Of a DNA stretch of 64,000 nt, positions 1,607-64,000 are shown piece by piece (position 1 is the stretch's first letter; each line of letters begins with the position of its first letter). The position numbers were made by a program, and so were the translations under genes. The stretch is from Eledone cirrhosa (lineage: Eukaryota): assembly GCA_964016885.1 (NCBI GenBank), contig OZ024765.1:13516001-13580000 (forward strand), written 5' to 3'. The notes beneath the pieces were generated by a model. It was not told the DNA's origin. It made no database searches and was given only the letters and a program-made list of their open reading frames with translations.

Positions 1607-2053
1607 AGAATATATATATATTTAATGAGGCATAGAGTCAGAGAAATGTATAAAGTATTTTTACCTGTTGTAAGAGTTACACTTGGTTGTGTTGAGACAG
1701 AAGTTGATGTAGTCACTGCCGAGGAAGATAACAGTAAAAATATATTATATATTATTGTAAAAATAAACTATATAACTTTAAATATATATATATATATATA
1801 TAAAAAATATATATATATATATAATTTGAAACATCTGTTTTTTTTTCCCTTTATTCCTCTTTTTTTTCATCTTTCCTCTCACTCTCCAAACAGAACTTGA
1901 ACCATTAAGGCCTGATTCCTGGGTATGTCACTATTTATAAAACAAACTTTGTATTATATCTGATGAGAGCGTACCAAAGTTTTGGTACCCTTGTAATATA
2001 TATAATAGAATAAATATGGTTTTATAAATATAGTTTCCATTTATTAATATTGT

Positions 2054-7349: not shown

Positions 7350-8977
7350 CTGTTGTTGATGTTGGTATGGTTGGTGTTGTTGGTATGGTTGATGTTGTTG
7401 GTATGGTTGATGTTGTTGGTATGGTTGATGTTGTTGGTATGGTTGATGTTGTTGGTATGGTTGATGTTGTTGGTATGGTTGGTGTTGTTATTCCTGTCAT
7501 TGGTGTTGTTTTTGTTATTGTAGGTGGCAATAGTGGTGTTGGTGTTGTTGGTGTTGTTGTTGTTGTTGGTGTTGTTGTTGTTGGTGTTGTTGTTGGTGTT
7601 GTTGTTGTTGGTGTTGTTGTTGGTGTTGTTGTTGGTGTTGTTGTTGTTGTTGGTGTTGTTGTTGGTGTTGTTGTTGTTGGTGTTGTTGTTGGTGTTGTTG
7701 TTGGTGTTGTTGTTGTTGTTGGTGTTGTTGTTGGTGTTGTTGTTGTTGGTGTTGTTGTTGGTGTTGTTGTTGGTGTTGTTGTTGTTGGTGTTGTTGTTGG
7801 TGTTGTTGTTGGTGTTGTTGTTGGTGTTGTTGTTGTTGGTGTTGTTGTTGGTGTTGTTGTTGGTGTTGTTGTTGTTGGTGTTGTTGTTGGTGTTGTTGTT
7901 GTTGGTGTTGTTGTTGGTGTTGGTGTTGTTGTTGTTGTTGGTATTGTTGTTGTCGTTGGTGTTGTTGTTGGTGTTCTTGTTGGTGTTGTTGGTGTTGATG
8001 TTGGTGTTGGTGTTGGTGTTGTTGTTGGTGTTGTTGTTGTTGGTGTTATTGTTGTTGTTGGTGTTGTTGTTGTTGGTGTAGGTGTTGTTGTTGTTGTTGG
8101 TGTTGTTGGTGTTGGTGTTGTTGGTGTTGTTGGTGTTGGTGTTGTTGGTGTTGTTGTCGGTGTTGTTGTTGGTGTTTTTGGTGTTGTTGGTGTTGTTGTT
8201 GGTGTTGTTGGTGTTGTTGGTGTTGTTGTTGTTGTTGGTATTGTTGTTGTCGTTGGTGTTGTTGGTGTTGTTGTTGGTGTTGTTGGTGTTGATGTTGGTG
8301 TTGATGTTGGTGTTGGTGTTGTTGTTGGTGTTGTTGTTGTTGGTGTTGTTGTTGTTGGTGTTGTTGTTGTCGTTGGTGTTGTTGGTGTTGTTGTTGGTGT
8401 TGTTGTTGTTGGTGTTGTTGTTGGTGTTGTTGTTGGTGTTGTTGTTGTTGGTGTAGGTGTTGTTGGTGTTGTTGGTGTTGTTGGTGTTTTTGGTGTTGTT
8501 GGTGTTGTTGTTGGTGTTGTTGGTGTTGTTTTTGGTGTTGTTGTTGGTGTTGTTGGTGTTGTTGGTGTTGTTGTTGTTGTCGGTGTTGTTGTTGGTGTTG
8601 TTGGTGTTGTTGTCGGTGTTATTGGTGTTGTTGTTGGTGTTGTTGTTGGTGTTGGTGTTGTTGTTGTCAGTGTTGTTGTTGTTGGTGTTGTTGTTGGTGC
8701 TGTTGTTGTTGGTGTTGTTGTTGTTGTTGGTGTTGTTGTTGGTGTTGTTGGTGTTGGTGTTGTTGGTGTTGTTGTTGTTGTTGTTGGTGTTGTTGGTGTT
8801 GTTGTTGTTGTTGGTGTTGTTGTTATTGGTGTTGTTGGTGTTGTTTTTGTTGTTGGTGTTGTTGTTGTTGTTGGTGTTGTTGGTGTTGTTGTTATTGGTG
8901 TTGTTGGTGTTGTTTTTGTTGTTGGTGTTGTTGGTGTTGTTGTTGTTGGTGTTGTTGGTGTTGTTGTTGTTGTTGTT

Positions 8978-9008
<31 letters not shown>

Positions 9009-12000
9009 GTGCTGGTATTGTTGTTGTTGGTGTTGTTGTTAATGGTGTTGGTGTTGTTGTTAATGGTGTTGTTGTTGGTGTTGTTGTTGTTGGTGTTGTT
9101 GTTATTGGTGTTGTTGTTATTGGTGTTGTTGGTATTGTTGTTGTTGTTGTTGTTGGTGTTGTTGGTGTTGTCAGTGTTATTGGTGTTGTTGGTGTTGTTG
9201 TCGGTGTTGTTACTGGTGTTATTGTTGTTGGTGTTATTGTTGTTGGTGTTATTGTTGTTGGTGTTATTGTTGTTGGTGTTATTGTTGTTGGTGTTATAGG
9301 TGTTACTGGTGTTGTTGTTGTTGTCGGTGTTGTTACTGGTGTTATTGTTGTTGGTGTTATTGTTGTTGGTGTTATAGGTGTTGTTGTTGTTGGTGTTACT
9401 GGTGTTATTGTTGTTGGTGTTATAGGTGTTGTTGTTGTTGGTGGTATAGGTGTTATTGGTGTTGTTGGTGGAGTTGGTGTCTTTTTCCTTACTAAACAAG
9501 TTGTGGTTGTTTCCGTTGTCGGTGTTGTTACATTTGTTTTCCTTGTTGTTGTTGTTAGTGTTATTTTTGTTGGTGTTGTTGTAGCTGGTGTTCTTGTTGT
9601 TGGTGTTGGTGTTGTTGTTGTTGTTGTTGGTGGTGTTGGTGTTATTGGTGTTGTTATTGGTGTTGCTGTTGTTGGTGTTGTTGTTGTTGGTGTTGTTGTT
9701 GATGTTGGTGTTGTTGGTGTTGGTGTTGGTGTTGTTGTTGTTGGTGCTGTTGTTAGTGTTGTTGTTGGTATTGTTGTTGTTGGTGTTGTTGTTGGGGTTG
9801 TTGTTGGTGTTGTTGTTGGTGTTGTTGTTGTTGGTGTTGTTGTTGTTGGTGTTATTGTTGTTGTTGGTGTTATTGTTGTTGGTGTTATTGTTGTTGTTGG
9901 TATTGTTGTTGTTGTTGTTGGTGTTGTAGTTGGTGTTGTTGTTGGTGTTGGAGTTGGTGTTGTTGTTGGTGTTATTGTTGTTGGTGTTCTTGTTGTTGTC
10001 GCTGTTGTTGGTGTTTCTGGTGTTGTTGATGTTGTTGTTGTTGGTGTTGTTGTTGGTGATGTTGTTGGTGTTGTTGTTGGTGGTGTTGTTGTTGGTGGTG
10101 TTGTTGGTGTTGTTGTTGGTGTTGGTGTTGTTGTTGGTGTTATTGTTGTTGGTGTTCTTGTTGTTGTCGCTGTTGTTGGTGTTTCTGGTGTTGTTGATGT
10201 TGTTGTTGTTGGTGTTGTTGTTGGTGATGTTGTTGGTGTTGTTGTTGGTGGTGTTGTTGTTGGTGGTGTTGTTGTTGGTGGTGTTGTTGTTGGTGGTGTT
10301 GTTTTTGGTGTTGTTGTTGTTGTTGTTGGTGTTGTTGTTGTTGTTGTTGTTGGTGTTATTGGTGTTGTTGTTGGTGTTCGTGATGTTGTTTGTGTTATTG
10401 GTGTTGTTGTTGGTGTTGTTGGTCTTATTGTTGGTGTTGTTGGTGTTATTGTTGTTGATGTTGGTGTTCTTGTTGGTGTTATTGTTGTTGGTGTTATTGT
10501 TGTTACTGGTGTTGTTGTTGTTGTCGGTGTTGTTACTGGAGTTATTGTTGTTGGTGTTATTGTTGTTGGTGTTATTGTTGTTGGTGTTATTGTTGTTGGT
10601 GTTATTGTTGTTGGTGTTATAGGTGTTACTGGTGTTGTTGTTGTTGTCGGTGTTGTTACTGGTGTTATTGTTGTTACTGGTGTTGTTGTTGTTGTCGGTG
10701 TTGTTACTGGAGTTATTGTTGTTGGTGTTATTGTTGTTGGTGTTATTGTTGTTGGTGTTATTGTTGTTGGTGTTATTGTTGTTGGTGTTATTGTTGTTGG
10801 TGTTATAGGTGTTACTGGTGTTGTTGTTGTTGTCGGTGTTGTTACTGGTGTTATTGTTGTTGGTGTTATTGTTGTTACTGGTGTTGTTGTTGTTGTCGGT
10901 GTTGTTACTGGTGTTATTGTTGTTGGTGTTATTGTTGTTGGTGTTATTGTTGTTGGTGTTATTGTTGTTGGTGTTATTGTTGTTACTGGTGTTGTTGTTG
11001 TTGTCGGTGTTGTTACTGGTGTTATTGTTGTTGGTGTTATTGTTGTTGGTGTTATTGTTGTTGGTGTTATTGTTGTTGGTGTTATTGTTGTTACTGGTGT
11101 TGTTGTTGTTGTCGGTGTTGTTACTGGTGTTATTGTTGTTGGTGTTATTGTTGTTGGTGTTATTGTTGTTGGTGTTATTGTTGTTGGTGTTATTGTTGTT
11201 GGTGTTATTGTTGTTACTGGTGTTGTTGTTGTTGTCGGTGTTGTTACTGGTGTTATTGTTGTTGGTGTTATTGTTGTTGGTGTTATTGTTGTTGGTGTTA
11301 TTGTTGTTGGTGTTATTGTTGTTGGTGTTATTGTTGTTACTGGTGTTGTTGTTGTTGTCGGTGTTGTTACTGGTGTTATTGTTGTTGGTGTTATTGTTGT
11401 TGGTGTTATTGTTGTTGGTGTTATTGTTGTTGGTGTTATTGTTGTTGGTGTTATTGTTGTTACTGGTGTTGTTGTTGTTGTCGGTGTTGTTACTGGTGTT
11501 ATTGTTGTTGGTGTTATTGTTGTTGGTGTTATTGTTGTTGGTGTTATTGTTGTTGGTGTTATTGTTGTTGGTGTTATTGTTGTTACTGGTGTTGTTGTTG
11601 TTGTCGGTGTTGTTACTGGTGTTATTGTTGTTGGTGTTATTGTTGTTGGTGTTATTGTTGTTGGTGTTATTGTTGTTGGTGTTATTGTTGTTGGTGTTAT
11701 TGTTGTTGGTGTTATTGTTGTTGGTGTTATTGATGTTACTGGTGTTGTTGTTGTTGTCGGTGTTGTTACTGGTGTTATTGTTGTTGGTGTTATTGTTGTT
11801 GGTGTTATAGGTGTTGGTGTTATTGTTGTTGGTGTTATTGTTGTTGGTGTTATTGTTGTTACTGGTGTTGTTGTTGTTGTCGGTGTTGTTACTGGTGTTA
11901 TTGTTGTTGGTGTTATTGTTGTTGGTGTTATTGTTGTTACTGGTGTTGTTGTTGTTGTCGGTGTTGTTACTGGTGTTATTGTTGTTGGTGTTATTGTTGT

Positions 12001-25810: not shown

Positions 25811-25940
25811 AGTGAATTATGTAACATAATTTTATGGTAATATTATGTAAACACATGTAACAGACTATTTCATGAAATAAATATTTCTTCAATTTTCATC
25901 AGATTTTGCCTAGTTTTTTCTTGTGCCATATTCACTTTAA

Positions 25941-27295
25941 CCCTTTAGCATTTACATTACTCTATATATACTATTATATTTTCGCAGTAAAGGTTTTACC
26001 TCACATAATATCTCACATAACATTTACATTACTCTATATATACTATTGTATTTTCACAGTAAAGAATTTACCCCCACATAATATCTCACTTAACATTTAC
26101 ATTACTCTATATATACTATTGTATTTTCACAATAAAGGTTTTACCTCAAATAATATCTCACATAACATTTACATTACTCTATATATACTATTGTATTTTC
26201 ACAGTAAAGGTTTTACCCCACATAATATCTCACATAACATTTACATTACTGTATATATACTATTGTATTTTCACAATAAAGGTTTTACCCCAAATAATAT
26301 CTCACATAACATTTACATTACTCTATATATACTATTGTATTTTCACAGTAAAGGTTTTACCCCACATAATATCTCACATAACATTTACATTACTGTATAT
26401 ATACTATTGTATTTTCACAATAAAGGTTTTACCCCAAATAATATCTCACATAACATTTACATTACTCTATATATACTATTGTATTTTCACAGTAAAGGTT
26501 TTACCCCACATAATATCTCACATAACATTTACATTACTCTATATATACTATTGTATTTTCACAGTAAAGGTTTTACCCCACATAATATCTCACATAACAT
26601 TTACATTACTCTATATATACTATTGTATTTTCACAGTAAAGGTTTTACCCCACATAATATCTCACATAACATTTACATTACTCTATATATACTATTGTAT
26701 TTTCACAGTAAAGGTTTTACCCCACATAATATCTCACATAACATTTACATTACTGTATATATACTATTGTATTTTCACAATAAAGGTTTTACCCCAAATA
26801 ATATCTCACATAACATTTACATTACTCTATATATACTATTGTATTTTCACAGTAAAGGTTTTACCCCACATAATATCTCACATAACATTTACATTACTGT
26901 ATATATACTATTGTATTTTCACAATAAAGGTTTTACCCCAAATAATATCTCACATAACATTTACATTACTCTATATATACTATTGTATTTTCACAGTAAA
27001 GGTTTTACCCCACATAATATCTCACATAACATTTACATTACTCTATATATACTATTGTATTTTCACAGTAAAGGCTTTACCCCACATAATATCTCACATA
27101 ACATTTACATTACTCTATATATACTATTGTATTTTATTGGTAAAATCTCACTTAATATCGAATCTATGAGATTTTGATATAATTTATTTTGAGAACAATA
27201 CCTTATCATCAGTATGAGCAGCCAGTTATGGCTGGTTTGAACAAAAAAGGGTAAGAAAATTCTGGCCAGATATTGCTGGTTTAAATGCTAAAGGG
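25941..27295. mobile_element. Non-autonomous piggyBac-like MITE carrying ~16 copies of a 72-bp tandem repeat
   Basis: TTAA|ccctttagcattta ... taaatgctaaaggg|TTAA (14-bp TIRs, TTAA TSD); internal period 72 bp. Confidence 0.85.
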
Positions 27296-27529
27296 TTAAA
27301 TTACTCTGTGAAATCTCCTTGGAACCTATGTGCCACACTCAATGGCACCTTTCGTATCATCAAGATACTTATGTTACACAACTCCAGTATCCATGTTGAG
27401 CACAATTAACTGGTAAGTATATTTGAATATATCAAAAACTAATGAAAGAGGTTTGACCATGGATCAGACCAAGGAAGCAATGCTTCCATTGCTCATAGTA
27501 CCTGTCTGTTGGTCAATACTATTGACAGA

Positions 27530-28450
27530 AATATCATAACTCTCAACAGAAGCATCACAACTCCTAGCATAAACATCACAAATCCTAGCATAAACATCAC
27601 AACTCCTAGCATAAACATCACAACTCCTGGTAAAAGCATCACAACTCTTGGCAGAAGCAGCACAAATTTCATAAACATCACAAATCTTGCCGTAAACATC
27701 ACAACTTCTGACTGAAGCCTCACAACTTCTGATTGAAGCCTCACAACTCCTGATTGAAGCCTCATAACTCCTGACAGAAGTATCACAACTCCTCACAGAT
27801 GAGTCACAACTTCTACAGAAATCTCACAACTCCTGACAAAAGCCTCACAACTCCTGATAGAAGAATCAGTAGCCTCACAACTCCTGACACAAACCTCACA
27901 ACTCATACAGAAACCTCATAACTCCTACAGAAACCTCACAACTCCTGACAGAAGTTTCACAATTCCTGACAGAAGCTTCACAACTCCTAACTGAAGCTTC
28001 ACAACTCCTGACAGAAGATTCACAACTCCTGACAGAAGCTTCACAACTCCTGACAGAATTTCACAACTCCTGACAGAAGCTCCACAACTTCTGACAGAAG
28101 CTTCACAACTCCTGACAGAAGCTTCACAACTCCTGACAGAAGCTTCACAACTCCTGACAGAAGCTTCACAACTCCTGACAGAAGCTTCACAACTCCTAAC
28201 TGAAGCTTCACAACTCCTGACAGAAGCTTCACAACTCCTAACTGAAGCTTCACAACTCCTGACAGAAGCTTCACAACTCCTAACTGAAGCTTCACAATTC
28301 CTGACAGAAGCTTCACAACTCCTGACAGAAGCTTCACAACTCCTGACAGAAGCTTCACAACTCCTGACAGAAGCTTCACAACTCCTAACTGAAGCTTCAC
28401 AACTCCTGACAGAAGCTTCACAACTACTGACTGAAGCTTCACAACTTTGA
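27530..28450. repeat. 21-bp minisatellite (ctcctgacagaagcttcacaa)n; paralog at ~45280-46335
   Basis: Direct inspection; degenerate at the left end, homogeneous at the right. Confidence 0.92.
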
Positions 28451-28512
28451 TAGAAGTGTCACCATTCCTTTGAACATGCCAAACAGAGAATTAAGTAGAA
28501 AAAAAAACTTAC

Positions 28513-28642
28513 TTTCAAAACATCCAATAACTGTCAAAGAGACATCCATTGGTTTATCAGAGACTGTTGATTGGAAATTGATCTTGATCTCGTTTGAACT
28601 GGTTCCTTCTGGTATGGTAGCAGTTTCATTGGCTTTGAATGT
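28513..28642 (-). CDS. Mucin-like gene exon B (C-terminal part of the F5/8C-like domain)
   Basis: ttcttttttcaatag|ACATTC...GAAA|gtaagt; phase 0 to 1. Translates TFKANETATIPEGTSSNEIKINFQSTVSDKPMDVSLTVIGCFE, a frame not listed in the ORF track. Confidence 0.85.
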
Positions 28643-28684
28643 CTATTGAAAAAAGAATACATGACATAGGAATACAGATTATAT

Positions 28685-29066
28685 ATATCTTGAGCTGACT
28701 TTTGGGAGGTCCCCATACAGCTCTGAGTTCTTCATCTTCAGTGTATACTGATTAATGTTCAGAGCCATCCTCAGCATTCTCGTGTAGCACCCATCCACCA
28801 TCTGAGTGAGTTTCTTGGTCAGTGTCCAAGTCTCAGACCTGTACAACAACACAGACTCCACTACAGCAGGACATGCTCACCGACATCCAGAGTTGACACT
28901 GCATTCAGTGCTCCTGTGGGAGCCCCTGCATGGACACACTGGAAGGGGAAGACCGAGGTTAACATATATGTTGATGCCCTAAGGACAGACACTGGTCTCT
29001 TCCAGAGGCAAGACATGGCAGAAATAATGAGGGACAGAGACCGCTGGAGAGAACTTGTCCATGGAT
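28685..29066. mobile_element. 5'-inverted RTE-clade LINE fragment; paralog at ~46570-46950
   Basis: Minus part VESVLLYRSETWTLT..DGCYTRMLRMAL is joined to plus part AGHAHRHPE..LLWEPLHG..GRGRP..YVDAL..DRDRWR. Confidence 0.8.
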
Positions 29067-29189
29067 CTTTGGAATTTTACTTCCTGATGATTTCTCCGGA
29101 ATGAAACAGTTCAGTCTTGTGTAAGCCTTTCTATATTAAATATATATATATGTTAAGTATTTCCGCGGAAAAGGTACAGAGCTATTTAA

Positions 29190-29318
29190 TTATGTAATAA
29201 ACAGCACAATATAATTATTCCATTACCCAAGGTTTCACGAAGTCAGACGATTCTAACAGAGGTGTCTGTTAGAAATCCTGGGTCATGGAATAATTATATT
29301 GTATTGTTTATTACATAA
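29190..29318. repeat. Foldback of the same family as 3344-3543; paralog at ~47075-47203
   Basis: Arms ttatgtaataaac..ataattattccattaccc / gggtcatggaataattat..gtttattacataa. Confidence 0.75.
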
Positions 29319-29561
29319 AATAAAAAAATATATATATGTCTAACCCATGCTAGCGTGGAAGATGGACGTTAAACTATGATGATGATGATGATGATATATA
29401 TATATATATAATTATCAACAATAGTAATAAATGGAAAATATCACATCACCTGGTCCAAGAATCGAACTCACAACCTTTCAATTGCAAGCTCAATGCTCTA
29501 ACCACTAAGCCATGTGCCTTCACATTATTCATAGAAATCAATAAATATCCATATGACTCAC

Positions 29562-29824
29562 CCGAATTATGTTGGAATTAGCATTCCGAAAAATTAAGAC
29601 AAATTTTGCCACATTTTTATGTTTTCGCAAAATTATTTTGGCTCCATATTTCAAAATCCCTTTCTTAATTTTCACTATAACTTGTGATGAAACAAAGGGT
29701 TGTAATTTCCACCCTGGTCCTGTTGGTCGTATCAGTTTAGGAGATTCCAAAGTCGATAATTGGATACTGGAATCTGGGATATATTCCTTCTTTGTCATTC
29801 CATCGACAAATCGACATTTTCCAA
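29562..29824 (-). CDS. Mucin-like gene exon A (N-terminal part of the F5/8C-like domain)
   Basis: tttattttatatttttag|TTGGA...CGG|gtgagt; phase 1 to 0. Translates GKCRFVDGMTKKEYIPDSSIQLS...GPGWK...NIIR and joins exon B in frame. Confidence 0.85.
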
Positions 29825-32624: not shown

Positions 32625-35600
32625 CACAAAAGTTATTTAGTGTTAATAGTACATAGCTTGTATAGAAACGGGTGGAGTAACTGTAGAGATAAGTGTAAAA
32701 GAGAGACAGGTTCGTTATATTATTAACTATTTCAGTTATAGTTAAAAAAAATAGGCAGATTTTTTGTAGTATAGACTGTTTTAGTTCTAGTTAGGTGTAA
32801 AACAGGCAGTTTTTTTGTATCTTAAACTGTTTTTTTGTAGTTAAGTGTAAATGTAATGTAATCTAATCTGGCCGAGTTTACACTCACAAAGAAGAACCAG
32901 GGCCACCCCTAGGAGCATTGGATTTGGTGTACTTCATATTTGTTTCGGTTGCTGAACACAATCAGGGGTCGCTGCTTCTCCTGAAGGTCAATAGTTCTCT
33001 TCTAACTCGAGCAGGAGCGCCTTTCCATTGTCAATTTACATGGATCATCTTCAAAGCTGCATTGTTCTCAGAACCACTACACCAGTCTTTCGATGTGTGC
33101 AGCTGGAACTACTGCCACCCATTTATTTGGCAGGATTTTTTTTGATTTTTTTTTAGATGGCCGTTGACTCTTATGAGTTATTCCAGCCTTTGTCAGGTTT
33201 TGTCTTTTGTCCTGCAGGGTGTCCAAAATTGCCCTCCTCACCAAGTAAACTTGGAGAGGTTGCCATATTTACGGCCATATCACACTGAAAACACCAGTTC
33301 TCATACGATCACCAAAGTAAAGCAGCGTCGAGCATAGTTAGTTCTTAGATGGTGTAAGCATTAAGTGTAAAACAGGCAGTTTATTTGTATTGTAAGCAGT
33401 TTTTATTGTCTAAAGACTGACTCGAGTTCAGAGGCTCATCAGGCCAGAGCTTACCCCAGTTTACTTGGCATTCTGTGACTGAGAGTACAAGACTCCTCCA
33501 TGGACAGAACGCCAGTCCATTGCAGGGTTAAACCCCCAGCTATTGCTAGTACTCATTTTCAGCTGATTATACTGGAGTGATGTGAAATGAAGTGTTTTAC
33601 TCCAGAAGATAACACAAAACCTACTCCAGAAACACCCATGACATTATGATTGTAAGTCCAACACTCTTATCACCGAAGTAACATGAAATGAAGTATTTTG
33701 TCCAAGAACACGACGTACAGCCATCTCTAAACCCAGCATACAGGAGTGACTGAGGGGAAGATAGCCAGTGATGTAAGCCTATTCCAGTCACAGGAAGGAA
33801 CCATAGAAGTGGTTGATAGCTTCTGCTATCTTTGAAACGTAATTAGCAGTAGAGCTGAGAGTTTAATAGCTAAACTAAGGATAGGTTGGAATAATTTGAT
33901 AGAGTTACTTTGTGAAGGTGCATGGCTTAGTGGTTAGAGTATTGGGTTGCAATCAAAAGGTTGTGAGTTTATATCTCGGACTGGGTGATGTGTTGTGTCC
34001 TTGAGCAAGACACTTTATATCACGTTGCTCCAGTTTACTCAGCTGTAGAAGTGAGTTGCCATCCTGCCAAATCAATGGGTGGCAGTAGTTCCAGCTGCAC
34101 ACATAGAAAGACTGGTGTAGTGATTCTGAGAACAATGTGGCTCTGCAGATGATTAATGTAAATTGACAATGGAAAGGCACTCCTGCTCGAGTTAGAAGAG
34201 AACTATTGACCTTCAAGAGAAGCAGAGACCCGTGATTGTATTCTGCAACTGAAACAAATATGAAGTACACCAAATTCAATGCTTCTAGGGGTGGCCCTGG
34301 TTCTTTTTATTTGTGAGTGTAAACTTGGCCAGATTAGATTACTCCCACTGTTGACCACAAAAGTTATTTAGTGTTAATAATACATACCTGGTGTAGTAAC
34401 GGGTGGAGTACTTGTAGAGATAACTGAAAAAGAGAGATAAGTTAGTTATATTATTAATTATTTCAGTTATAGTTAAGTAAAAAACGGGCAGTTTACTTGT
34501 ATTGTAAACAGTATTTGCTGTTCTTCAGCGTAAAACAGACAGGTTAGTATATTATAAACAGTTTTGTTGGTGATTAAGAGAACATTGTCAGTTTTTTTAA
34601 TTATAAACAGTTTTTTGTGTAATTAAGTATGAAACAAGCAGTTTATTTGTATTGTAAACTGTTTTTGTTGCAGTTAAGTGATCATTATGGCTGTTTTCTG
34701 TGTGATTAAGTGTAAATCAAGCATTTTATTTCTATTGTAAACTGTTTTTGTTGCAGTTAAGTAAAAAAGCAAGCAGTTATTTATTTTGTAAACTGTTTTT
34801 CTTGCAGTTAAGTAAAAAAACAAGCAGTTTATTTGTATTTTATACTGTTTTTGTGGTCTAAAATCTGTCTCAACCTCAGAGGCTCATCAGGTTTGTGCTT
34901 CTATGAGTTTGTGTCATGTTATGCAACTGAGAGTACAAGATTCTCCCTTGGACAGAATGCCAGTCGATTGCAGGGTTAAACCTCCTAGCTATTGCTGGTA
35001 CTCATTTTCAGCTGAATATACTGGAGTGATGTGAAATGATGTATTTTGCTCTAAAACACAACACACAGCCATCTCTAAACCCAGCATACAGGAGTGACTG
35101 ATGGGAAGATAGCCAGTGATGTAAGCAAATTCCAGTCACAGGAAGGAACCATAGAAGTGGTTGATAGCTTCTGCTATCTATGAAATGTAATTAGCAGTAG
35201 AGCCGAGAGTTTAATAGCTAGAATAAGGATAGGTTGGAATAATTTGAGAGAGTTACTTTGTGAAGGTGCATGGCTTAGTGGTTAGAGTATTGGGTTGCAA
35301 TCAAAAGGTTGTAAGTTTATATCTCGGACTGGGTGATGTGTTGTGTCCTTGAGCAAGACACTTTATATCATGTTGCTCCAGTTTACTCAGCTCTAGAAAT
35401 GAGTTGCCATCCTGCCAATTCAATGGGTGGCAGTAGTTCCAGCTGCACACATAGAAAGACTGGTGTAGTGGTTCTGAGAACAATTTTCAGATGATTAATG
35501 TAAATTGACAATGGAAAGGCGTTCCTGCTCGAGTTAGAAGAGAACTATTGACCATCAAGAGAAGCAGAGACCCCTGATTGTATTCTGCAACTGAAACAAA

Positions 35601-35966
35601 TATGAAGTACACCAAATCCAATGCTCCTAGGGGTGGCCCTGGTTCTTCTTATTTGTGAGTGTAAACTTGGCCAGATTAGATTACTCCCACTGTTGACCAC
35701 AAAAGTTATTTAGTGTTAATAATACATACCTGGTGTAGTAACGGGTGGAGTACTTGTAGAGATAACTGTAAAAGAGAAACATGTTAGTTATATTATTAAT
35801 TATTTAAGTTATAGTTAAGTAAAAAACAGGTAGTTGACTTGTATCGTAAACAGTTTTTGCTGTTCTTCAGTGTAAAACAGGCAGTTTAGAATATTATAAA
35901 GTTTTGTTGGTGATTAAGAGAACATTGTCAGTTTTTTTATTATCATAAACAGTTTTTTGTGTAATT
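32625..35966. repeat. Diverged, partly rearranged units of the 1.6-kb composite satellite (inverted piece at ~32860-33135)
   Basis: Same blocks as 48.8-64 kb. The MDLVYFIFVSV pseudo-ORF is on + at 32918 but on - elsewhere. Confidence 0.8.
33267..33359 (+). pseudogene. 5S rRNA-derived fragment (pseudogene or SINE3 head), internally deleted
   Basis: tacggccatatcacactgaaaacaccagttctcatacgatcaccaaagtaaagcagcgtcgagcatagttagttcttagatgg matches the 5' ~85 nt of animal 5S rRNA with multiple substitutions. Confidence 0.8.
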
Positions 35967-36358
35967 GGTCTAGTAGTTGGCGTTGTTGTTGTTGTTGGTG
36001 TTGTTGTTGTTGGTGTTTTTGGTGTTGTTGGTGTTGTTGTTGTTGGTGTTGTTGTTGGTGATGTTGTTGGTGTTGTTGTTGGTGTTACTGTTGTTGTTGT
36101 TGGTGTTGTTGTTGGTGTTGTTGCTGTTGTTGTTGTTGGTGTTGTTGCTGTTGTTGGTGTTGTTGTTGGTGTTGTTATTGGCGTTGTTGGTGTTATTGTT
36201 GTTGGTGTTGTTGGTGTTGTTGTTGGTGTTGTTGTTGTTGTTGGTGTTACTGTTGTTGTTGTTATTGTTGGTGTTGTTGGTGCTGTTGTTGTTGTTGGTG
36301 TTGTTGGTGTTGTTGTTGGTGTTGTTGTTGGTGTTGTTGTTGGTGTTGTTGTTGTTGG

Positions 36359-36389
<31 letters not shown>

Positions 36390-36501
36390 GGCGTTGTTGT
36401 TGGTGTTGTTGGTGTTGTTGTGACTGTAGCTGTAGTAGTAGTAGTCATTGTGGTAGTTGTAGTGTGTAGGGGGGATGTAGGCGTGATGGTTACCATGTAG
36501 G
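35967..36501 (-). CDS. Duplicated, truncated PTS exon that runs into satellite sequence (in-frame stop at 35894)
   Basis: Identical acceptor and [18 protein letters not shown] start. No clear splice donor before the satellite junction. Confidence 0.5.
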
Positions 36502-37159: not shown

Positions 37160-38913
37160 GCATACATACATATATACTTATATATACAGATATATATACA
37201 CACACACACACATATATATATATCTAGTAAATATGGTACATATGGTACATTCACCACAGCTGAACACATTGCTGTCCTTTCTCGTTAAACTCTGCCAAGT
37301 CTAATACTGTGCAGGGGTGTTCCAGCAGGGGGCATAACAGGAGGTGCTGTATAGTCTGTAGTTCCATGTTGCAATCACACAAAACGTCCCAATCCTTCAA
37401 ATATCCCCATTTTACAAGGTCGACTTTTGCATGTCCAACACCAGATTGTAGTTTGTTTAGGTATTTCCACACTGCGAGACAGTGAATTATGTAACATAAT
37501 TTTATGGTAATATTATGTAAACACATGTAACAGACTATTTCATGAAATAAATATTTCTTCAATTTTCATCAGATTTTGCCTAGTTTTTTCTTGTGCCATA
37601 TTCACTTTAACCCTTTAGCATTTACATTACTCTATATATACTATTATATTTTCGCAGTAAAGGTTTTACCCCACTTAATATCTCACATAACATTTACATT
37701 ACTCTATATATACTATTGTATTTTCACAGTAAATGTTTTACCCCACATAATATCTCACATAACATTTACATTACTCTATATATACTATTGTATTTTCACA
37801 GTAAAGATTTTACCCCCACATAATATCTCACTTAACATTTACATTACTCTATATATACTATTGTATTTTCACAGTAAATGTTTTACCCCACATAATATCT
37901 CACATAACATTTACATTACTCTATATATACTATTGTATTTTCACAGTAAAGGTTTTACCCCACATAATATCTCACATAACATTTACATTACTGTATATAT
38001 ACTATTATATTTTCGCAGTAAAGGTTTTACCCCACATAATATCTCACATAACATTTACATTACTGTATATATACTATTATATTTTCGCAGTAAAGGTTTT
38101 ACCCCACATAATATCTCACATAACATTTACATTACTGTATATATACTATTATATTTTCGCAGTAAAGGTTTTACCCCACATAATATCTCACATAACATTT
38201 ACATTACTGTATATATACTATTATATTTTCGCAGTAAAGGTTTTACCCCACATAATATCTCACATAACATTTACATTACTGTATATATACTATTATATTT
38301 TCGCAGTAAAGGTTTTACCCCACATAATATCTCACATAACATTTACATTACTCTATATATACTATTATATTTTCGCAGTAAAGGTTTTACCCCACATAAT
38401 ATCTCACATAACATTTACATTACTCTATATATACTATTGTATTTTCACAGTAAAGGTTTTACCCCACATAATATCTCACATAACATTTACATTACTCTAT
38501 ATATACTATTATATTTTCGCAGTAAAGGTTTTACCCCACATAATATCTCACATAACATTTACATTACTCTATATATACTATTGTATTGTCACAGTAAAGG
38601 TTTTACCCCACATAATATCTCACATAACATTTACATTACTCTATATATACTATTGTATTGTCACAGTAAAGGTTTTACCTCACATAATATCTCACATAAC
38701 ATCTCGTATACGAGAGACGTGTGTTGACGTGTGTGAACAAGCTCGGCTACCGAGTCGGATTTACTTACTCAAAAAGTGAGTTTTGATTAATTTTTTTATA
38801 CTGTAATATACGTTAACCCCTTGCCTTGGTCGTCAAACTTTGAGTTTATTTATTTTCGCCCCTTTTTGGGGCGAATTTTCCAGTTAAAAATTTATTACGG
38901 CAAACTAATAGAA

Positions 38914-40656
38914 ATGGACGGAATTTTCACATCTCATCCTAACGTGAAAGCCACGCCCCCTAAGAAAGGTGATACAGAGAAGCTAGAAGCACAAGGCTCT
39001 AAGTCTTCCCTCCTGACTTCTGCAAAAGAAACATGGAACACGGAATTAAAAGAAAAATTTGTAAAAATGGGTGAAAACCCAGAAAGTCACATAAACGCAG
39101 ACAAAAACAACAACGACAATAACAGCAATAGTCACAACACCAACCAAGGAAAAAATAACGATAACACCAAACAAAGCGAACCCACTACTGGTGCCTCCTT
39201 TGCACAGGCGGTCCGGAAAACACAAACCTGCAAGCAACTGGACATTACAACTCTGAGAGAAAAGATGAAGGAAGCGAAACAGTATGTAACTTTCAAAGAA
39301 GGAGGAGACTTCACAATCACCTCCCCACAAGAAATCAAAAGAGACACGACGCTAAGAACGATATCTTTCAGAACAATTTCCAACATAACAAGGAAACCAA
39401 CTCAATTATCCCAAAAAGAGATTGAGCTGGTCCTAAAAAATGTGTGGAGTGATATATCGTTCATACAAAAAGGGCCACTCTATGGGAATATAACGGTCCT
39501 AATGAAGGATCAATTGACGGCCAGGAAATACTCTGTGGCACCAATTGTTTCCAAGCTACATACATTTTTCCCCACATATTTAGGGAAAAGAACGCAGAAG
39601 ATAAGGGTCTCCGGAATCCGGCCAAATGCATGCATTTCCTGGGTACTAACAGGATTTTTAGAAGACGAGGACGGAATCCTCTCAGTAGGAGAAGTCACCA
39701 CAGACGTTTTCGGCGGTTTGAGCGTGGAGGTTCTGGTCCAAATGAGACCAGAACGAATAGCTAGAATACCACAGAGGGTGTCCCTCGATGGAGAAACATT
39801 TATATATATTTCAGCCGAGGGTAGGAGGCCCATATGTTACTACTGTTCAAGCAGGGGTCATCTAAGGGCTGCTTGTCCTCAATTGACAAAAAAAAAGGCT
39901 CTTTTGCCTACACCCCACACACCACCACCGCCACCACCACCACCACCACCACCTCCACCACCACCACCACAACAACAACAAAAACAACAGGGAAAAATAA
40001 CACAAGACACGGCCCCACCCAAAACAACTCCCAAAACACACACAAATACAACAAAACCCCAAAATACACCACTACCGGACAGCACGGACGAGGACCCAGC
40101 GGAAACGGCACCTAGTGACGAAGAGGGGGAACCCTTCCAACCTGTAAAAAGGAAAAAAAGAAAGCACCACTCGAACATAAACGAAACAAACACACAACCA
40201 CCAACAAAAACAAAACAAACAGAACAAACAAAATCCGCCCCACCCCAAAACATAACACATACAACAAAACGTAAGCACACACAAGAACAACAAACAAACA
40301 CAACACAAATAAAACAGTATACATACATTAACACAAATAACAAAGAACTAGTAAAAACAATACACAAAGACCCTTTGGTGGAAACTGAAGGGCAATTCTT
40401 TGCAAGCGCGGCCAACAAACCGCATTTAAAAATGATAAGACTCCCAATGGACACCTATGCAAAACTAAGAGAGAACTTTCCTGAGGACGTGGGGAAAACA
40501 TGTACTCGACCCTATAACCGCGTCCTCTTGAAACGTTTCCCCACCCACACCTCACCAAACACCCCCACTCCACCACAGAACAACACCCCACCAAACAACC
40601 CCTCCAATACGCCCATGGATATTGTGCAACCTGCTCCTCAGGAGCCGAACAGGTAG
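38914..40656 (+). CDS. ORF1 (Gag-like RNA-binding protein with a zinc knuckle), 580 aa
   Basis: First ATG at 38914; SFAQAV motif; CYYCSSRGHLRAAC (CX2CX4HX4C); poly-Pro tract; basic VKRKKRK stretch. Confidence 0.88.
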   Translation: MDGIFTSHPNVKATPPKKGDTEKLEAQGSKSSLLTSAKETWNTELKEKFVKMGENPESHINADKNNNDNNSNSHNTNQGKNNDNTKQSEPTTGASFAQAVRKTQTCKQLDITTLREKMKEAKQYVTFKEGGDFTITSPQEIKRDTTLRTISFRTISNITRKPTQLSQKEIELVLKNVWSDISFIQKGPLYGNITVLMKDQLTARKYSVAPIVSKLHTFFPTYLGKRTQKIRVSGIRPNACISWVLTGFLEDEDGILSVGEVTTDVFGGLSVEVLVQMRPERIARIPQRVSLDGETFIYISAEGRRPICYYCSSRGHLRAACPQLTKKKALLPTPHTPPPPPPPPPPPPPPPPQQQQKQQGKITQDTAPPKTTPKTHTNTTKPQNTPLPDSTDEDPAETAPSDEEGEPFQPVKRKKRKHHSNINETNTQPPTKTKQTEQTKSAPPQNITHTTKRKHTQEQQTNTTQIKQYTYINTNNKELVKTIHKDPLVETEGQFFASAANKPHLKMIRLPMDTYAKLRENFPEDVGKTCTRPYNRVLLKRFPTHTSPNTPTPPQNNTPPNNPSNTPMDIVQPAPQEPNR

Positions 40657-40677
40657 GTCCTTCCTCTTTTAACCAAC

Positions 40678-43600
40678 ATGGCTGATATAAGAGTTGGGTG
40701 TCTGAATGTACGTGGCCTGGGACTGTCTTGGAAACAAGGCAAACTTTTAAACGATCTCAGGTCGCACAGAATGGATGTAATGGCTATTTGCGAGTCCAGG
40801 ATCAGCAGCGAGCACCAACTGGCGCCCCTCTTCGACGACTTTGAGATCTTCGCATCTCTCTGTCAACCGGGGGGTGGGGGTGGAGTTGTTCTGCTGCGAA
40901 AACATCTGGGCCTCGCCATACAGAAGGTGCACCTGGACCCGGAGGGTCGACTGGTGGTTTTAGACGTCGGCAGTAGTGAAAGTGGAGCCCTTAGACTAAT
41001 AGCTGTGTACGCCCCTTTTTGGGCAGCGCGGCCGGAATACTTCCAACGTCTGGAAACTTTTCTGGGAACGTCCCGCTCCTTGCTTTTAGTGGGGGACTGG
41101 AATGGTATCCTGGATGCACGTTGGGACTATGTAGGGGCATGTGCCAATAGAGGGGGGTGTAAAAGCCTCAAAAGGTTAATCGGCCGATTTGACCTGGCCG
41201 ATAGATATCGACTAGATTTTCCGACTGTACCACTATGGAGGTGGACCAATCGCAGTGGAACATCTAGGTCGTACCTAGATAGGGTCCTAGTTAGAGAGAA
41301 CGATAGGGACACATTTAGCTGTCCAAAAATGTTCATGGTTGACTATTCGGATCACAAGTTAGTGACCTGCATAGCCAACCTTGATAGAACCCATAGACAG
41401 GGACCCGGTTACTGGAAGCTGAACTTGTCCTTACCGAGAAGCAAAGCTTACAGTAAACGGATTAGCACGTTAGTTAAGCAGAGTTTGACAGGGGCAATTG
41501 TCAACAACAGGTGGTGGAGCTCTCTTAAGAGAGCAATTAGAATAGAATCGATAGGTTTTAGTCAGGAATTAGCAAGGGATAGGAACAAGACGGAAAGGGA
41601 ATTAGTAGATAGAGTAGAAGAGGCGATTAGGAGTGGCAATGTAGCCGGCGTGCTGGCATCAAGAATGGCCTTAGACCAGTTCTTTGAGGTGAAGCATGAA
41701 GGCTGCGTTGTCAGGAGTAAAATACGTGCTCTGGGTAATGAGGGAGCCAAAGCTGTGAGCTGGGCCCGAGTGACAGAGGCAAAAAGTGGGAACAAGTCCA
41801 CGATTCGGTCTTTGAAGGACCAGGATGGGCGTGTGATCCTTGAACCTGGGCAGATGTGTGCGGCCTTTCAGCGGCACTTTGCACGACTGTTCGAGAGGGG
41901 CGGCGCGCCGGGTGAGACTATGGATTTCAATCCATACCTCGACGGTCTGCCGCGCCTCTCGGACGCGGAGGCGAAGTCCTGCGAAAGGACGATTTCAGCT
42001 GCTGAGATAGGGGCGGCGCTGAGCCAATGCGGCAAACGCAAATCCCCGGGTCTCGATGGTCTACCATACGAGCTATATGTAGCGATGCCGGACTTGTTCT
42101 CCGATATCCTCGAAGCGGTCTACTGCAACTGGCAGCAGAACGGGAGAATTCCCAGTTCTGTGACCAAGGGCGTAGTTACGGTGGTGAGGAAGGATGAGAA
42201 CAAGGGGGATGACATAAGTAACTTCAGGCCCATAACTCTGCTAAATACAGAGTTAAAGATTTTGGCCAAGGTGTTAGCGAAGAGGTTGGCGCTTGTCGTT
42301 GGAAACCTGGTGGGAGAAGCGCAGACATGCGCAATCCCGTCCAGGTCCATTCACGACAATCTCCACCTTATGCGATACATCATAGAGAGGGTAGGGAATG
42401 AACCCGGCTTTGGTGGGGCCCTGATCAACTTGGATCAATCTAAAGCTTTCGATAGGGTTGACCATCGTTACCTGGATGCGGTGCTCGCGGCGGCAGGCTT
42501 CGGACCCGTTTTCAGGGGTTGGATTGCTGCGATGCACAGCAGCAACGTCTGCTCAAGGGTCAAGGTGAACGGCCACCTCTCGGAGCCGTTCCAAATCATG
42601 CGATCCATCCGACAGGGATGCCCTCTCTCCTCCCTACTGTATGTGCTGGCTCTTGAGCCACTACTGCGGAAGTTGGAGCGGTTGCAGGGCATCCCTTTGG
42701 AACCGGGATTGCAGAAAGCGGCGTCGGCCTACGCCGATGACGTGACAGTAATGGTGTCGAAAACCTCGCAAATCGGTGAGATCGGCACCTTACTGGAGGA
42801 ATATGAAAGGTTTACAGGAGCCAAGTTGAACCGGGACAAGTCCGTCGGTTTGCAACTCGGAACATGGAGAGGCAAACCGATGCCCTCCAACGACGTCGTT
42901 GGACGCTGGACGGAGGGCCCGGTGAAGCTGCTTGGGGTCTGGTTCGGACCAGACCTCCAGGTGGAGAAAAACTGGAACGAGGTAACGGCCAGGGTGTTTG
43001 CACTCACCCAGAAGTGGGCCCAGTGCAAACTATCCCTGAAAGGTCGAGCGGAGGTGGCGAATACTTATATAGCATCCGTCATCTACTACCGCTTGACCGT
43101 CGTGCCTTGCCCAGTGAAAAGACTCGCCAAAATGGAGTGCGCGCTATTCCAATTTCTTTGGAACAAGCGGACCCCTTTGGTGAGGAGATCCATCTGCTGT
43201 CAACACCCTTCGAAAGGAGGGCTGGGGATGCCGTGGCTACAGATGCGTAAACACGCATTAAGGCTACGGCACCTCCAGGTATTCCTCACCGGTCAACCGG
43301 TGTGGGCCCCGTTTGTGAGGCGAGCCTTTCCCAGACTCGTCTCGCTCACCGAGCTGCAATCCTGGGTCAAGCAAAGACCGAGAAAAGTGGGCGACTGGCA
43401 CATTGAATGTGCCCAGGCACTCACGGCCCTCTGGAAAGCGGACCCGGCAATCAGTGGAGACTCCACGTCGACATTCTATAGAGGGTTGGTACGCAGCAGG
43501 TGCGACGATGCTCTCGGAGAAGCTCTAGGCATGGAGGAAGATGAACTGGCCAGTCTGTTCGGTAGGACGTTTGGCCCTGGACCGATGGACAACTTCCAAA

Positions 43601-44001
43601 AGTCCCTGGCTTGGCAGTGCTACCGAGGGGCTCTACCCGTTCGAGACAAGCTCCACAGGCATGGGAGCCTGGGTAGAGATCCTTTGAATAAGATCTGTCC
43701 GAGATGCGTGCATGATGACGAAACCGTTGCGCACGCATTCGTACACTGCCCAGGCATTGCTGACCTGTGGGGCTATGTGGAACGACTACTGTCGAGGGTG
43801 GGACCAATCCGGTTGACCACCGAGTCCATTGTCACGATCAAACCGCCTCCCCCTTTCAAAAACGAAGGAGAGGCGGTTTTTCTCTGTGTGGTAGCCATGG
43901 CTAAAGAAGTTGTATGGTGGACGAGGCTGAAAGGGCTGAGGTCAGACACCTTTCTCTCCGGCCAACAACTGGTCCCCTTTTTCAAATACCATTTTAAATG
44001 A
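40678..44001 (+). CDS. ORF2: APE endonuclease, reverse transcriptase and C-terminal Cys-His domain
   Basis: APE motifs GCLNVRG, VYAP, GDWN, SYLDR, YSDH. RT motifs KSPGLDG, FRPITLLN, LDQSKAFDRVDH, RQGCPLS, YADD. C-terminal CPRC..HAFVHC. The frame continues past the TGA to a TAG ending at 44112. Confidence 0.95.
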   Translation: MADIRVGCLNVRGLGLSWKQGKLLNDLRSHRMDVMAICESRISSEHQLAPLFDDFEIFASLCQPGGGGGVVLLRKHLGLAIQKVHLDPEGRLVVLDVGSSESGALRLIAVYAPFWAARPEYFQRLETFLGTSRSLLLVGDWNGILDARWDYVGACANRGGCKSLKRLIGRFDLADRYRLDFPTVPLWRWTNRSGTSRSYLDRVLVRENDRDTFSCPKMFMVDYSDHKLVTCIANLDRTHRQGPGYWKLNLSLPRSKAYSKRISTLVKQSLTGAIVNNRWWSSLKRAIRIESIGFSQELARDRNKTERELVDRVEEAIRSGNVAGVLASRMALDQFFEVKHEGCVVRSKIRALGNEGAKAVSWARVTEAKSGNKSTIRSLKDQDGRVILEPGQMCAAFQRHFARLFERGGAPGETMDFNPYLDGLPRLSDAEAKSCERTISAAEIGAALSQCGKRKSPGLDGLPYELYVAMPDLFSDILEAVYCNWQQNGRIPSSVTKGVVTVVRKDENKGDDISNFRPITLLNTELKILAKVLAKRLALVVGNLVGEAQTCAIPSRSIHDNLHLMRYIIERVGNEPGFGGALINLDQSKAFDRVDHRYLDAVLAAAGFGPVFRGWIAAMHSSNVCSRVKVNGHLSEPFQIMRSIRQGCPLSSLLYVLALEPLLRKLERLQGIPLEPGLQKAASAYADDVTVMVSKTSQIGEIGTLLEEYERFTGAKLNRDKSVGLQLGTWRGKPMPSNDVVGRWTEGPVKLLGVWFGPDLQVEKNWNEVTARVFALTQKWAQCKLSLKGRAEVANTYIASVIYYRLTVVPCPVKRLAKMECALFQFLWNKRTPLVRRSICCQHPSKGGLGMPWLQMRKHALRLRHLQVFLTGQPVWAPFVRRAFPRLVSLTELQSWVKQRPRKVGDWHIECAQALTALWKADPAISGDSTSTFYRGLVRSRCDDALGEALGMEEDELASLFGRTFGPGPMDNFQKSLAWQCYRGALPVRDKLHRHGSLGRDPLNKICPRCVHDDETVAHAFVHCPGIADLWGYVERLLSRVGPIRLTTESIVTIKPPPPFKNEGEAVFLCVVAMAKEVVWWTRLKGLRSDTFLSGQQLVPFFKYHFK

Positions 44002-46397: not shown

Positions 46398-46527
46398 TTT
46401 CAAAACATCCAATAACTGTCAAAGAGACATCCATTGGTTTATCAGAGACTGTTGATTGGAAATTGATCTTGATCTCGTTTGAACTGGTTCCTTCTGGTAT
46501 GGTAGCAGTTTCATTGGCTTTGAATGT
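46398..46527 (-). CDS. Duplicate of exon B
   Basis: Identical splice sites and reading frame (offset 17,885 from 28513-28642). Confidence 0.75.
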
Positions 46528-47446: not shown

Positions 47447-47709
47447 CCGAATTATGTTGGAATTAGCATTCCGAAAAATTAAAACAAATTTTGCCACATT
47501 TTTATGTTTTCGCAAAATTATTTTGGCTCCATATTTCAAAATCCCTTTCTTAATTTTCACTATAACTTGTGATGAAACAAAGGGTTGTAATTTCCACCCT
47601 GGTCCTGTTGGTCGTATCAGTTTAGGAGATTCCAAAGTCGATAATTGGATACTGGAATCTGGGATATATTCCTTCTTTGTCATTCCATCGACAAATCGAC
47701 ATTTTCCAA
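47447..47709 (-). CDS. Duplicate of exon A
   Basis: Identical splice sites; the one difference noticed is synonymous (GTC/GTT, Val). Confidence 0.75.
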
Positions 47710-63700: not shown

Positions 63701-64000
63701 ATTTATGTAAATTGACAATGGAAAGGAGCTCCTGCTCGAGTTAGAAGAGAACTAGTGACCTCTAGGAGAAGCAGCGATCCCTAATTGTATTCAGCAACCA
63801 CAACAAGTATGAAGTACACCAAATCGAATGTTCCTAGGGGAGGCCCTGGTTCTTCTTATTTGTGAGTGTAAACTCGGCCAGATTAGATTACTCCCACTGT
63901 TGACCACAAAAGTTATTTAGTGTTAATAATACATACCTGGTGTAGTAACGGGTGGAGTACTTGTAGAGATAACTGTAAAAGAGAGACAGGTTAGTTATAT
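48790..64000. repeat. ~1.6-kb composite macrosatellite (about 9 units, continuing past the window end)
   Basis: Markers recur at 60278, 61890 and 63502 (period 1612) and at 61064 and 62676. Each unit contains two SINE 3' pieces, an RTE fragment (IEVVDSFCYL...RIRIGW), a tRNA-head SINE and ~55-bp A/T-rich subrepeats. Confidence 0.95.

What the first reader, a model, noticed from the sequence alone, without database searches (positions are those of the whole stretch)
7350..29824. Cryptic giant mucin-like gene: discoidin-like domain spliced to a single 16.7-kb PTS exon
Seen: exons 29562-29824 (phase 1-0), 28513-28642 (phase 0-1) and 7350-24011 (phase 1-1) have canonical splice sites and join in frame as [39 protein letters not shown]... 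Known: F5/8C (FA58C) domains begin C..LGM..IPD..I and end L...GC, and mucin PTS domains are typically single large exons. Inference: this is a very large O-glycosylated mucus or matrix protein with an exceptionally long coding exon that repeat-masking would probably hide as an (ACA)n microsatellite.
Basis: partly seen in the sequence, partly recalled or inferred. Interest (0 to 1): 0.8.

Follow-up and report, generated by a model that had tools for sequence, protein, structure and literature searches.

The report
Octopus mucin with 16.7-kb threonine exon
The 16.7-kb threonine/proline reading frame lies in the middle of a roughly 240-kb octopus gene built like a gel-forming mucin/SCO-spondin, and it likely encodes a 5,553-residue sugar-coated stalk of a secreted slime or matrix protein; it is a large but ordinary member of a known family, and its splicing is untested.

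Summary
In detail: three AG/GT exons join into 5,684 codons without a stop. The flanking DNA gives EGF, 3x VWD-C8-TIL, LDLa, four discoidin-like modules, 48 36-nt Thr/Ser/Pro microexons, the giant exon, then TSP1/TIL/VWC and a cystine knot. This is a SCO-spondin-like gel-forming mucin; the Octopus vulgaris ortholog model is CAI9741631.1. That model carries the domain with the same exon join. Its predicted fold matches neuropilin b1 and factor VIII C2, although Pfam F5_F8_type_C is not hit. The giant exon is likely coding, because a tandem paralog has ACA-coded Thr tracts in frame inside nine domain exons. It is not proven: there are no RNA data, an open frame is weak evidence here (null P=0.12), its donor is the gene's only GTACCT, and the exon can be skipped in frame. 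A recent partial duplicate (about 35,970-48,800) has a donor-less Thr exon. Human mucin exons reach this size and more. Verdict: new member of a known kind.

The parts
48998..63972 (-). 20 intact 36-nt phase 1-1 Thr/Ser/Pro microexons in tandemly duplicated intron units; the array runs on beyond the window (46 in all upstream of discoidin copy 1)
   Evidence: all AG/GT, 12 codons each
47447..47709 (-). Discoidin-like module, copy 1, exon A (1 synonymous difference from copy 2)
46398..46527 (-). Discoidin-like module, copy 1, exon B (identical to copy 2)
38791..43998 (+). Non-LTR retrotransposon (ORF1 with a weak zinc-knuckle match; ORF2 endonuclease and RT) inside the 72-bp satellite of copy 1 only; intronic, not part of the protein
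35897..36501 (-). Truncated copy of the Thr/Pro exon: same acceptor and first 109 nt, about 175 T/P codons, then fused to microexon-array intron; no consensus donor, in-frame stop near 35897
35730..35765 (-). 36-nt microexon
34388..34423 (-). 36-nt microexon
32657..32692 (-). Dead microexon (acceptor and donor both lost)
29562..29824 (-). Discoidin-like module, copy 2, exon A (phase 1-0)
28513..28642 (-). Discoidin-like module, copy 2, exon B (phase 0-1)
7350..24011 (-). Giant Thr/Pro (PTS) exon, 16,662 nt, 5,553 aa, phase 1-1; 3' boundary least certain
1665..1715 (-). 51-nt phase 1-1 Thr/Ser linker exon leading to the next discoidin-like module just outside the window

Best explanation
The window holds the central part of an octopod SCO-spondin-like gel-forming mucin gene (three VWD-C8-TIL units, LDLa, four discoidin-fold modules, Thr/Ser/Pro segments, TSP1/TIL/VWC, cystine knot), and the 16.7-kb Thr/Pro exon is likely spliced in as its main PTS segment, predicted to be densely O-glycosylated in a secreted protein that would polymerise through its ends. 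Shown: the exon sequences, the splice dinucleotides, the in-frame chain, the flanking domains and the homology to Octopus models. Predicted by modelling: the discoidin fold. Inferred from vertebrate mucins, VWF and SCO-spondin: dimers through the C-terminal cystine knot, multimers through the N-terminal VWD units, and a hydrated bottle-brush from the 3,892 Ser/Thr of the giant exon (562 kDa of peptide alone). The discoidin modules would act as folded spacers or binding units between glycosylated stretches; their ligand is unknown. The centre is a chain of phase-1 cassettes that grows by tandem duplication, and the broken exon copy at 36501 would be skipped in frame.
For: A 62-exon chain from LDLa through the giant exon to the fourth module translates as 6,760 aa with 0 stops and AG/GT at every boundary (partly by construction, as the cassettes are symmetric). 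Pfam hits at or above cut-off on single flanking exons: VWD (83.8 and 23.5 bits), C8, TIL (6 exons), LDLa, EGF_2, and TSP_1 (4 of 4 tested); Cys_knot (E 0.0014) and VWC (E 0.0074) are below cut-off. The O. vulgaris model CAI9741631.1 matches the N-terminal exons at about 53-90% and has six copies of the domain with the same A|B join. The A(1-0)+B(0-1) split recurs in all four modules of this gene and in a C2 paralog. In the tandem paralog upstream, nine exons carry ACA-dominated Thr tracts of 75-369 aa in frame with the domain inside one exon, and the C2 paralog has a stand-alone phase-1 Thr/Gln/Pro exon. The giant exon has no register shift, 4,425 of its 5,533 in-frame 60-mers are distinct, and its longest exact repeat is 568 nt. 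Lang 2016 (PMC4948705; passages and section 15) calls F5_F8 characteristic of lophotrochozoan mucin-like proteins and finds SCO-spondins the closest relatives of some invertebrate mucins.
Against: No junction was observed in RNA. A stop-free frame is expected by chance 12% of the time, and the Asn frame is open too. The donor at 7350 is the gene's most atypical (1 of 41), and skipping the exon keeps the frame. The O. vulgaris model has no Thr-dominated segment (at most 18 Thr per 100 aa) and a different module order, though it stops before the TSP1/cystine-knot part. No signal-peptide exon was located. Five short motifs of the ortholog were absent from the held (cut) part of an O. vulgaris skin-mucus peptide table, which does list other SCO-spondin-like proteins, so skin mucus is not supported as the site. 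The donor-less exon copy at 36501 would end the protein early if used.
Confidence: 0.75

Rival explanations
1. The gene is a real SCO-spondin-like mucin, but the 16.7-kb array is usually skipped (or has become an intronic satellite grown from a small exon), so the protein's PTS comes mainly from the microexons.
For: The exon is symmetric (phase 1-1), so skipping is in frame. The donor is atypical. Triplet slippage keeps the frame without selection, and stops are rare in this composition. The O. vulgaris model lacks such a segment.
Against: The acceptor scored 6.1, like the gene's other acceptors. The exon has non-repetitive, codon-like ends. Paralogs keep ACA-coded Thr tracts in frame inside domain exons. 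Human mucin genes carry internal exons of 10-21 kb (PMC3467050 passages).
Confidence: 0.12
2. Transcripts end early: the first, donor-less Thr exon (36501, stop near 35897) or read-through of the donor at 7350 (stop near 7210) acts as a last exon, giving a form without the cystine knot, or the recent duplication has damaged the gene.
For: The copy-1 acceptor is intact (129 of 131 nt identical around it) and comes first in the transcript; no consensus donor follows it. The giant exon's frame runs on to a stop just past its donor.
Against: No AATAAA or ATTAAA within 400 nt after the copy-1 stop. The downstream exons I listed are open with AG/GT ends through to the cystine-knot stop.
Confidence: 0.08
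3. The array length or the duplicated block is an assembly artefact (over-expanded repeat, or two haplotypes laid in tandem).
For: Most unique parts of the two blocks differ by only 0-0.9% (one by 3%), a range that alleles could reach. No long reads could be laid, and no listed contig spans the array or the block junctions.
Against: No N in 464 kb. The array is mostly non-identical sequence. Copy 1 has its own junctions and a private retrotransposon. Both exon A variants occur in DNA runs of one sample. Contigs over the duplicated block have depth 10.7-25 against 6.5-8 for the unique stretch between the copies; the tool warns that depth is no copy number, and these runs may be the assembly's own sample.
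Confidence: 0.05

Closest known systems
Octopus 'SCO-spondin(-like)' gene models: CAI9741631.1 (O. vulgaris, 2,480 aa), XP_014781837.2 (O. bimaculoides, 508 aa), XP_036370413.1 (O. sinensis, 424 aa)
   Same: Likely orthologs: 80% identity on the third VWD exon for the O. bimaculoides protein; the O. vulgaris model shares EGF-VWD-C8-TIL-LDLa and the same discoidin-like module.
   Different: All are partial. The O. vulgaris model has six copies of the window's module type before the other type (reverse order here), Ser/Ala/Pro-type repeats instead of Thr/Pro, no giant Thr segment, and no TSP1/cystine-knot end.
Lophotrochozoan mucin-like proteins and insect hemolectin (Lang et al. 2016, PMC4948705)
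   Same: [quoted passage not shown]
   Different: Hemolectin has two further VWD units (3+2); none was found after the centre here, and no CysD was seen. The domain here escapes PF00754. The C-terminus is TSP1/TIL/VWC/cystine knot.
Vertebrate SCO-spondin (PMC8487547: 1 EMI, 3 vWF-D, 1 FA5/8C, 13 LDLrA, 12 TIL, 27 TSR, 7 vWF-C, 3 EGF, 1 CTCK in chick)
   Same: Same domain kinds; VWD units and LDLa in the N-terminal part, TSP1 repeats and cystine knot in the C-terminal part.
   Different: 1 LDLa and about 6 TSP1 found here, four discoidin modules, and more than 6,000 residues of PTS, which that domain list does not include.
Human mucins with giant PTS exons (MUC16 >21,000 nt, MUC12 14,889, MUC4 12,708, MUC17 12,219, MUC5B 10,893 in PMC3467050; MUC12 alleles up to 23,080 aa in PMC13345508)
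   Same: One very large internal exon encoding a Thr/Pro/Ser segment.
   Different: Here the segment is a degenerate ACA/CCA triplet array with 69% Thr rather than a long-period VNTR, and the same gene also encodes PTS in 48 microexons.

Membership tests
Gel-forming mucin (Lang 2016) | Three N-terminal VWD-C8-TIL units | tested here: met
   Pfam VWD above cut-off for units 2 and 3, C8 and TIL exons; unit 1 and the other C8 exons by tblastn with Octopus proteins; some unit-1 exons not located
Gel-forming mucin (Lang 2016) | Central PTS domain | tested here: met
   5,553 aa at 90% T+S+P plus 48 microexons in the DNA; inclusion in mRNA not shown
Gel-forming mucin (Lang 2016) | C-terminal cystine knot, with VWC | tested here: inconclusive
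   Last exon hits Cys_knot (E 0.0014, 19.4 bits, cut-off 24) and DAN; VWC E 0.0074, below cut-off; aligns with the C-terminus of P0001 at E 7e-11 and ends in a stop
Gel-forming mucin (Lang 2016) | Signal peptide and secretion | tested here: inconclusive
   First exon not located in the exon scans
Gel-forming mucin (Lang 2016) | Dense O-glycosylation, polymerisation, gel formation | not testable with these tools
   Needs protein
SCO-spondin | LDL_recept_a together with multiple VWD units | tested here: met
   One LDLa, E 5.3e-11
SCO-spondin | Vertebrate copy numbers (13 LDLrA, 27 TSR) | tested here: not met
   1 LDLa and about 6 TSP1 exons found; hence 'SCO-spondin-like', not SCO-spondin proper
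SCO-spondin | Orthology to vertebrate SCO-spondin by VWD phylogeny | not tested
   No tree built
SCO-spondin | N-terminal EMI domain | not tested
   A Cys-Cys-x-Gly-Trp exon precedes the EGF; reading it as EMI is recalled, and this exon was not scanned
F5/8 type C (FA58C, discoidin; PF00754) | Pfam profile match | tested here: not met
   No PF00754 hit for five A-type exons, exon B, P0001 or P0002; no relevant sequence hit to the PDB with the exon A profile
F5/8 type C (FA58C, discoidin; PF00754) | Discoidin / galactose-binding-like beta-sandwich fold | tested here: met
   Models of two homologous contiguous domains: Foldseek E 6e-6 (neuropilin-1) and 7.6e-5 (factor VIII C2) for the ortholog. 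For the paralog, VIA-align Z 11-12.4 over 111-126 residues, rmsd 2.4-3.9, tied among DOC, CBM32, neuropilin, DDR1 and factor V C2. ESM Atlas 0.91 to F5_F8 clusters, a lead only
F5/8 type C (FA58C, discoidin; PF00754) | Cys near each end of the domain | tested here: met
   Cys invariant at position 3 of five A exons and aligned near the end of five B exons; the disulfide itself is recalled, not measured

The most novel reading that the evidence does not exclude
Cephalopods have their own clade of SCO-spondin-like mucins whose centre is an accordion of phase-1 cassettes: a Pfam-invisible discoidin module (4 copies here, 9 in the tandem paralog, 47 in the C2 paralog, 6+1 in the O. vulgaris model) and PTS supplied either by dozens of 36-nt microexons or by one microsatellite-born giant exon. 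This gene would tune stalk length from a few hundred to more than 6,000 residues by in-frame exon skipping, giving a roughly 9,500-residue full form that current annotations split and truncate.
Probability: 0.3. Interest if true: 0.62.

Novelty: new member of a known kind. Interest (0 to 1): 0.42.

Why it matters
If spliced as modelled, this is a roughly 9,500-aa secreted protein (my rough sum of exons) whose largest part would be hidden by simple-repeat masking. It gives a near-complete model for a family that the Octopus database entries I retrieved hold only as 400-2,500-aa fragments. It adds a divergent discoidin module that Pfam misses, and shows two ways of encoding PTS within one gene, which makes invertebrate mucin length evolution testable. 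It does not change what is known about mucins: the architecture and the giant exon both have precedents.

Tried and rejected
RNA evidence: no RNA holder listed. The three listed runs behave as genomic DNA of one sample (contigs cross exon-intron borders, no splice joints), so they say nothing on expression. No listed contig bridged the 35970 junction (the piece table was cut). Single-exon database search with exon A: 0 of 40 candidates scored; the five-exon profile found 2 cephalopod proteins among 5,736 candidates; only proteins up to 2,000 aa were searched. ESM Atlas with exon A alone gave unrelated hits under 0.9. The HMMER search of representatives never ran because the queue was full, so the range of the module beyond cephalopods is open. 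I suspected an 11-nt microhomology between the giant exon and the array intron at the duplication junction; the word is absent from the giant exon, so this was rejected. A comparison of register shifts with 16 other A/C-rich arrays in the flanks was too noisy to serve as a control. The stop-free frame as proof of coding was rejected. Supplements of PMC11431876 could not be read; those of PMC10138644 were cut when stored, so the absence of accessions and motifs is weak. The paper search for cephalopod + mucin + PTS domain + genome returned 0; the other searches listed nothing on this gene, judged from listings and the passages read. Earlier-findings look-ups returned nothing.
Full report
Observation. 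The three exons exist as stated on the minus strand, with AG/GT ends and phases 1-0, 0-1 and 1-1, and join into 5,684 codons without a stop. The giant exon encodes 5,553 aa with 3,820 Thr and 1,130 Pro; 3,685 of its codons are ACA. TRF reports it as one array. The open frame is weak evidence by itself: in 1,000 shuffles within codon positions 12.3% have no stop, and the Asn frame is open as well. The register is constant in 277 of 277 blocks. The sequence is not a homogeneous repeat: 4,425 of 5,533 in-frame 60-mers are distinct and the longest exact repeat is 568 nt. The donor at 7350 is the only GTACCT among 41 donors listed for this gene, so the 3' boundary is the least certain.

Context. 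The window is G000:C26:13,516,001-13,580,000 in a 3.0-Gb genome. That it is an octopod is inferred from identity to Octopus proteins. I fetched 200 kb on each side and scanned for exons. From about C26:13,689,650 down to a stop at about 13,450,570 (roughly 240 kb) the minus strand carries, in order: EGF; three VWD-C8-TIL units; one LDLa; a first discoidin-like module (13,606,347); 46 36-nt microexons of one type plus a few other small exons; module copy 1; two microexons; module copy 2; the giant exon; a 51-nt linker; a fourth module (13,513,374); a candidate 834-nt Pro-rich exon; about six TSP1 with TIL and VWC; and a cystine-knot exon. I scanned 25 single exons and 2 database proteins against Pfam. 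VWD, C8, TIL, LDLa, EGF_2 and TSP_1 reached their cut-offs, Cys_knot and VWC did not, and 6 of the 25 exons had no hit at E 0.1. A chain of 62 exons from LDLa to just past the fourth module gives 6,760 aa without a stop when the broken exon copy is left out. The first exon and signal peptide were not found.

The domain. Exon A hits no Pfam family. Five A-type exons align at 25-33% identity to the window's, with invariant Cys, Arg and Gly-Trp, and each has a B exon in the same phases. Database proteins hold the module in one piece: O. bimaculoides A0A0L8GSU4 and a cuttlefish protein, and the O. vulgaris model CAI9741631.1, whose six copies match exon A at 49-57% and exon B at 40-44%, joined at the same point. 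These are gene models, not cDNAs. I folded these homologous contiguous domains, not the window's spliced product. The paralog model (pLDDT 88.4) matched neuropilin b1, DDR2, CBM32, CASPR2 and factor VIII C2, with Z 11-12.4 shared among DOC, CBM32 and discoidin domains. The ortholog model (pLDDT 86.9) matched neuropilin-1 at E 6e-6 and factor VIII C2 at 7.6e-5. So the module has a discoidin / galactose-binding-like fold, has diverged beyond PF00754, and has no known ligand.

Is the giant exon coding? No RNA test was possible. Indirect support comes from paralogs. A tandem paralog directly upstream (about C26:13,763,000-13,884,000) has nine exons in which an ACA-dominated Thr tract of 75-369 aa runs in frame into a weakly matching A-type domain (profile E 2.4e-5 to 0.006). 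A paralog on C2 has 47 A-type exons, 44 of 47 passing a crude splice check, and a stand-alone phase-1 Thr/Gln/Pro exon. Against: the exon is skippable in frame, its donor is atypical, and the O. vulgaris model has no such segment, though that model is cut short.

The duplicate. About 35,970-48,800 is a recent copy of the block from 30,487 into the start of the giant exon: exon A differs at 1 of 263 nt, exon B at 0 of 130, and their intron at 5 of 919. Copy 1 has a private retrotransposon, and its Thr exon breaks off into array intron with no consensus donor and a stop near 35897. In three DNA runs of one sample both exon A variants appear, and the duplicated block has 1.5-3.3 times the contig depth of the unique stretch between the copies. 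This leans towards a real duplication but does not settle it.

Mechanism. Most likely (0.75) this is a secreted gel-forming mucin. By analogy with VWF, mucins and SCO-spondin (PMC8487547 passages; otherwise recalled), the VWD units and the cystine knot would link monomers into polymers, and the PTS (3,892 Ser/Thr, 562 kDa of peptide) would be O-glycosylated into a long hydrated stalk. The tissue is unknown. O. vulgaris skin mucus contains SCO-spondin-like and mucin-like proteins (PMC11431876 and PMC10138644 passages; supplement rows), but five motifs of this gene's ortholog were not in the held part of that table. Limpet pedal mucus has an SCO-spondin-like protein (PMC7333891 passages). Rivals: exon mostly skipped (0.12), early termination or damage (0.08), assembly artefact (0.05).

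Comparison and novelty. Lang 2016 (passages and section 15) already describes lophotrochozoan mucin-like proteins with F5_F8 domains and links some invertebrate mucins to SCO-spondin. Human mucin exons of 10.9 to more than 21 kb are on record (PMC3467050 passages), and MUC12 alleles reach 23,080 aa (PMC13345508 passages). Supplementary figure S4 of Lang 2016 was not seen and may show this architecture. I file the gene as a gel-forming, SCO-spondin-like mucin, not as SCO-spondin proper and not as a PF00754 member. It is a new member of a known kind, with two notable traits: PTS encoded both by 48 microexons and by one giant exon, and a divergent discoidin cassette whose copy number ranges from 4 to 47 among paralogs. 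Interest 0.42.

Noticed in passing
G000:C2:401,518,000-401,766,000 (L075-L100, + strand): Paralogous SCO-spondin-like gene with 47 tandem A-type exons of the same discoidin-like module between LDLa and the C-terminal part; 44 of 47 pass a crude splice check. The O. bimaculoides counterpart models hold only 6-7 copies.
   Followed up: partly
G000:C26:13,763,000-13,884,000 (L022-L023, L052-L062, - strand): Head-to-tail tandem paralog (VWD units, 3 LDLa hits, nine PTS+discoidin exons, TSP1/TIL, cystine knot), so the locus is a mucin gene pair.
   Followed up: partly
window 48998-63972 and on to G000:C26:13,597,317: Array of 46 36-nt microexons in intron units that recur at spacings of 423/624/1038 or 574/1038 nt, a higher-order tandem duplication of exons.
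   Followed up: yes
window 38791-43998 (+): Apparently full-length non-LTR retrotransposon (open stretches of 621 and 1,114 codons; endonuclease, RT, zf-RVT) inserted in the 72-bp satellite of the duplicated block only.
   Followed up: partly
window about 3812-5106 (-): Mariner-type element with terminal inverted repeats and a Transposase_1 match (E 2.9e-22) in the intron after the giant exon.
   Followed up: partly
window 25949-27135, 29867-30134, 37619-38702, 44350-44877, 47752-48439; 27523-28446, 45288-46331: 72-bp and 21-bp intronic satellites whose copy numbers differ between the two blocks; they give long spurious open frames.
   Followed up: no
L026:5284-6114 (-): Candidate 834-nt phase 1-1 Pro/Gln-rich exon with a strong donor between the fourth module and the TSP1 part; acceptor uncertain.
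   Followed up: partly
G000:C26:13,637,737 (-): An exon of the third VWD domain appears to use an unusual GAG acceptor with a poor pyrimidine tract.
   Followed up: no
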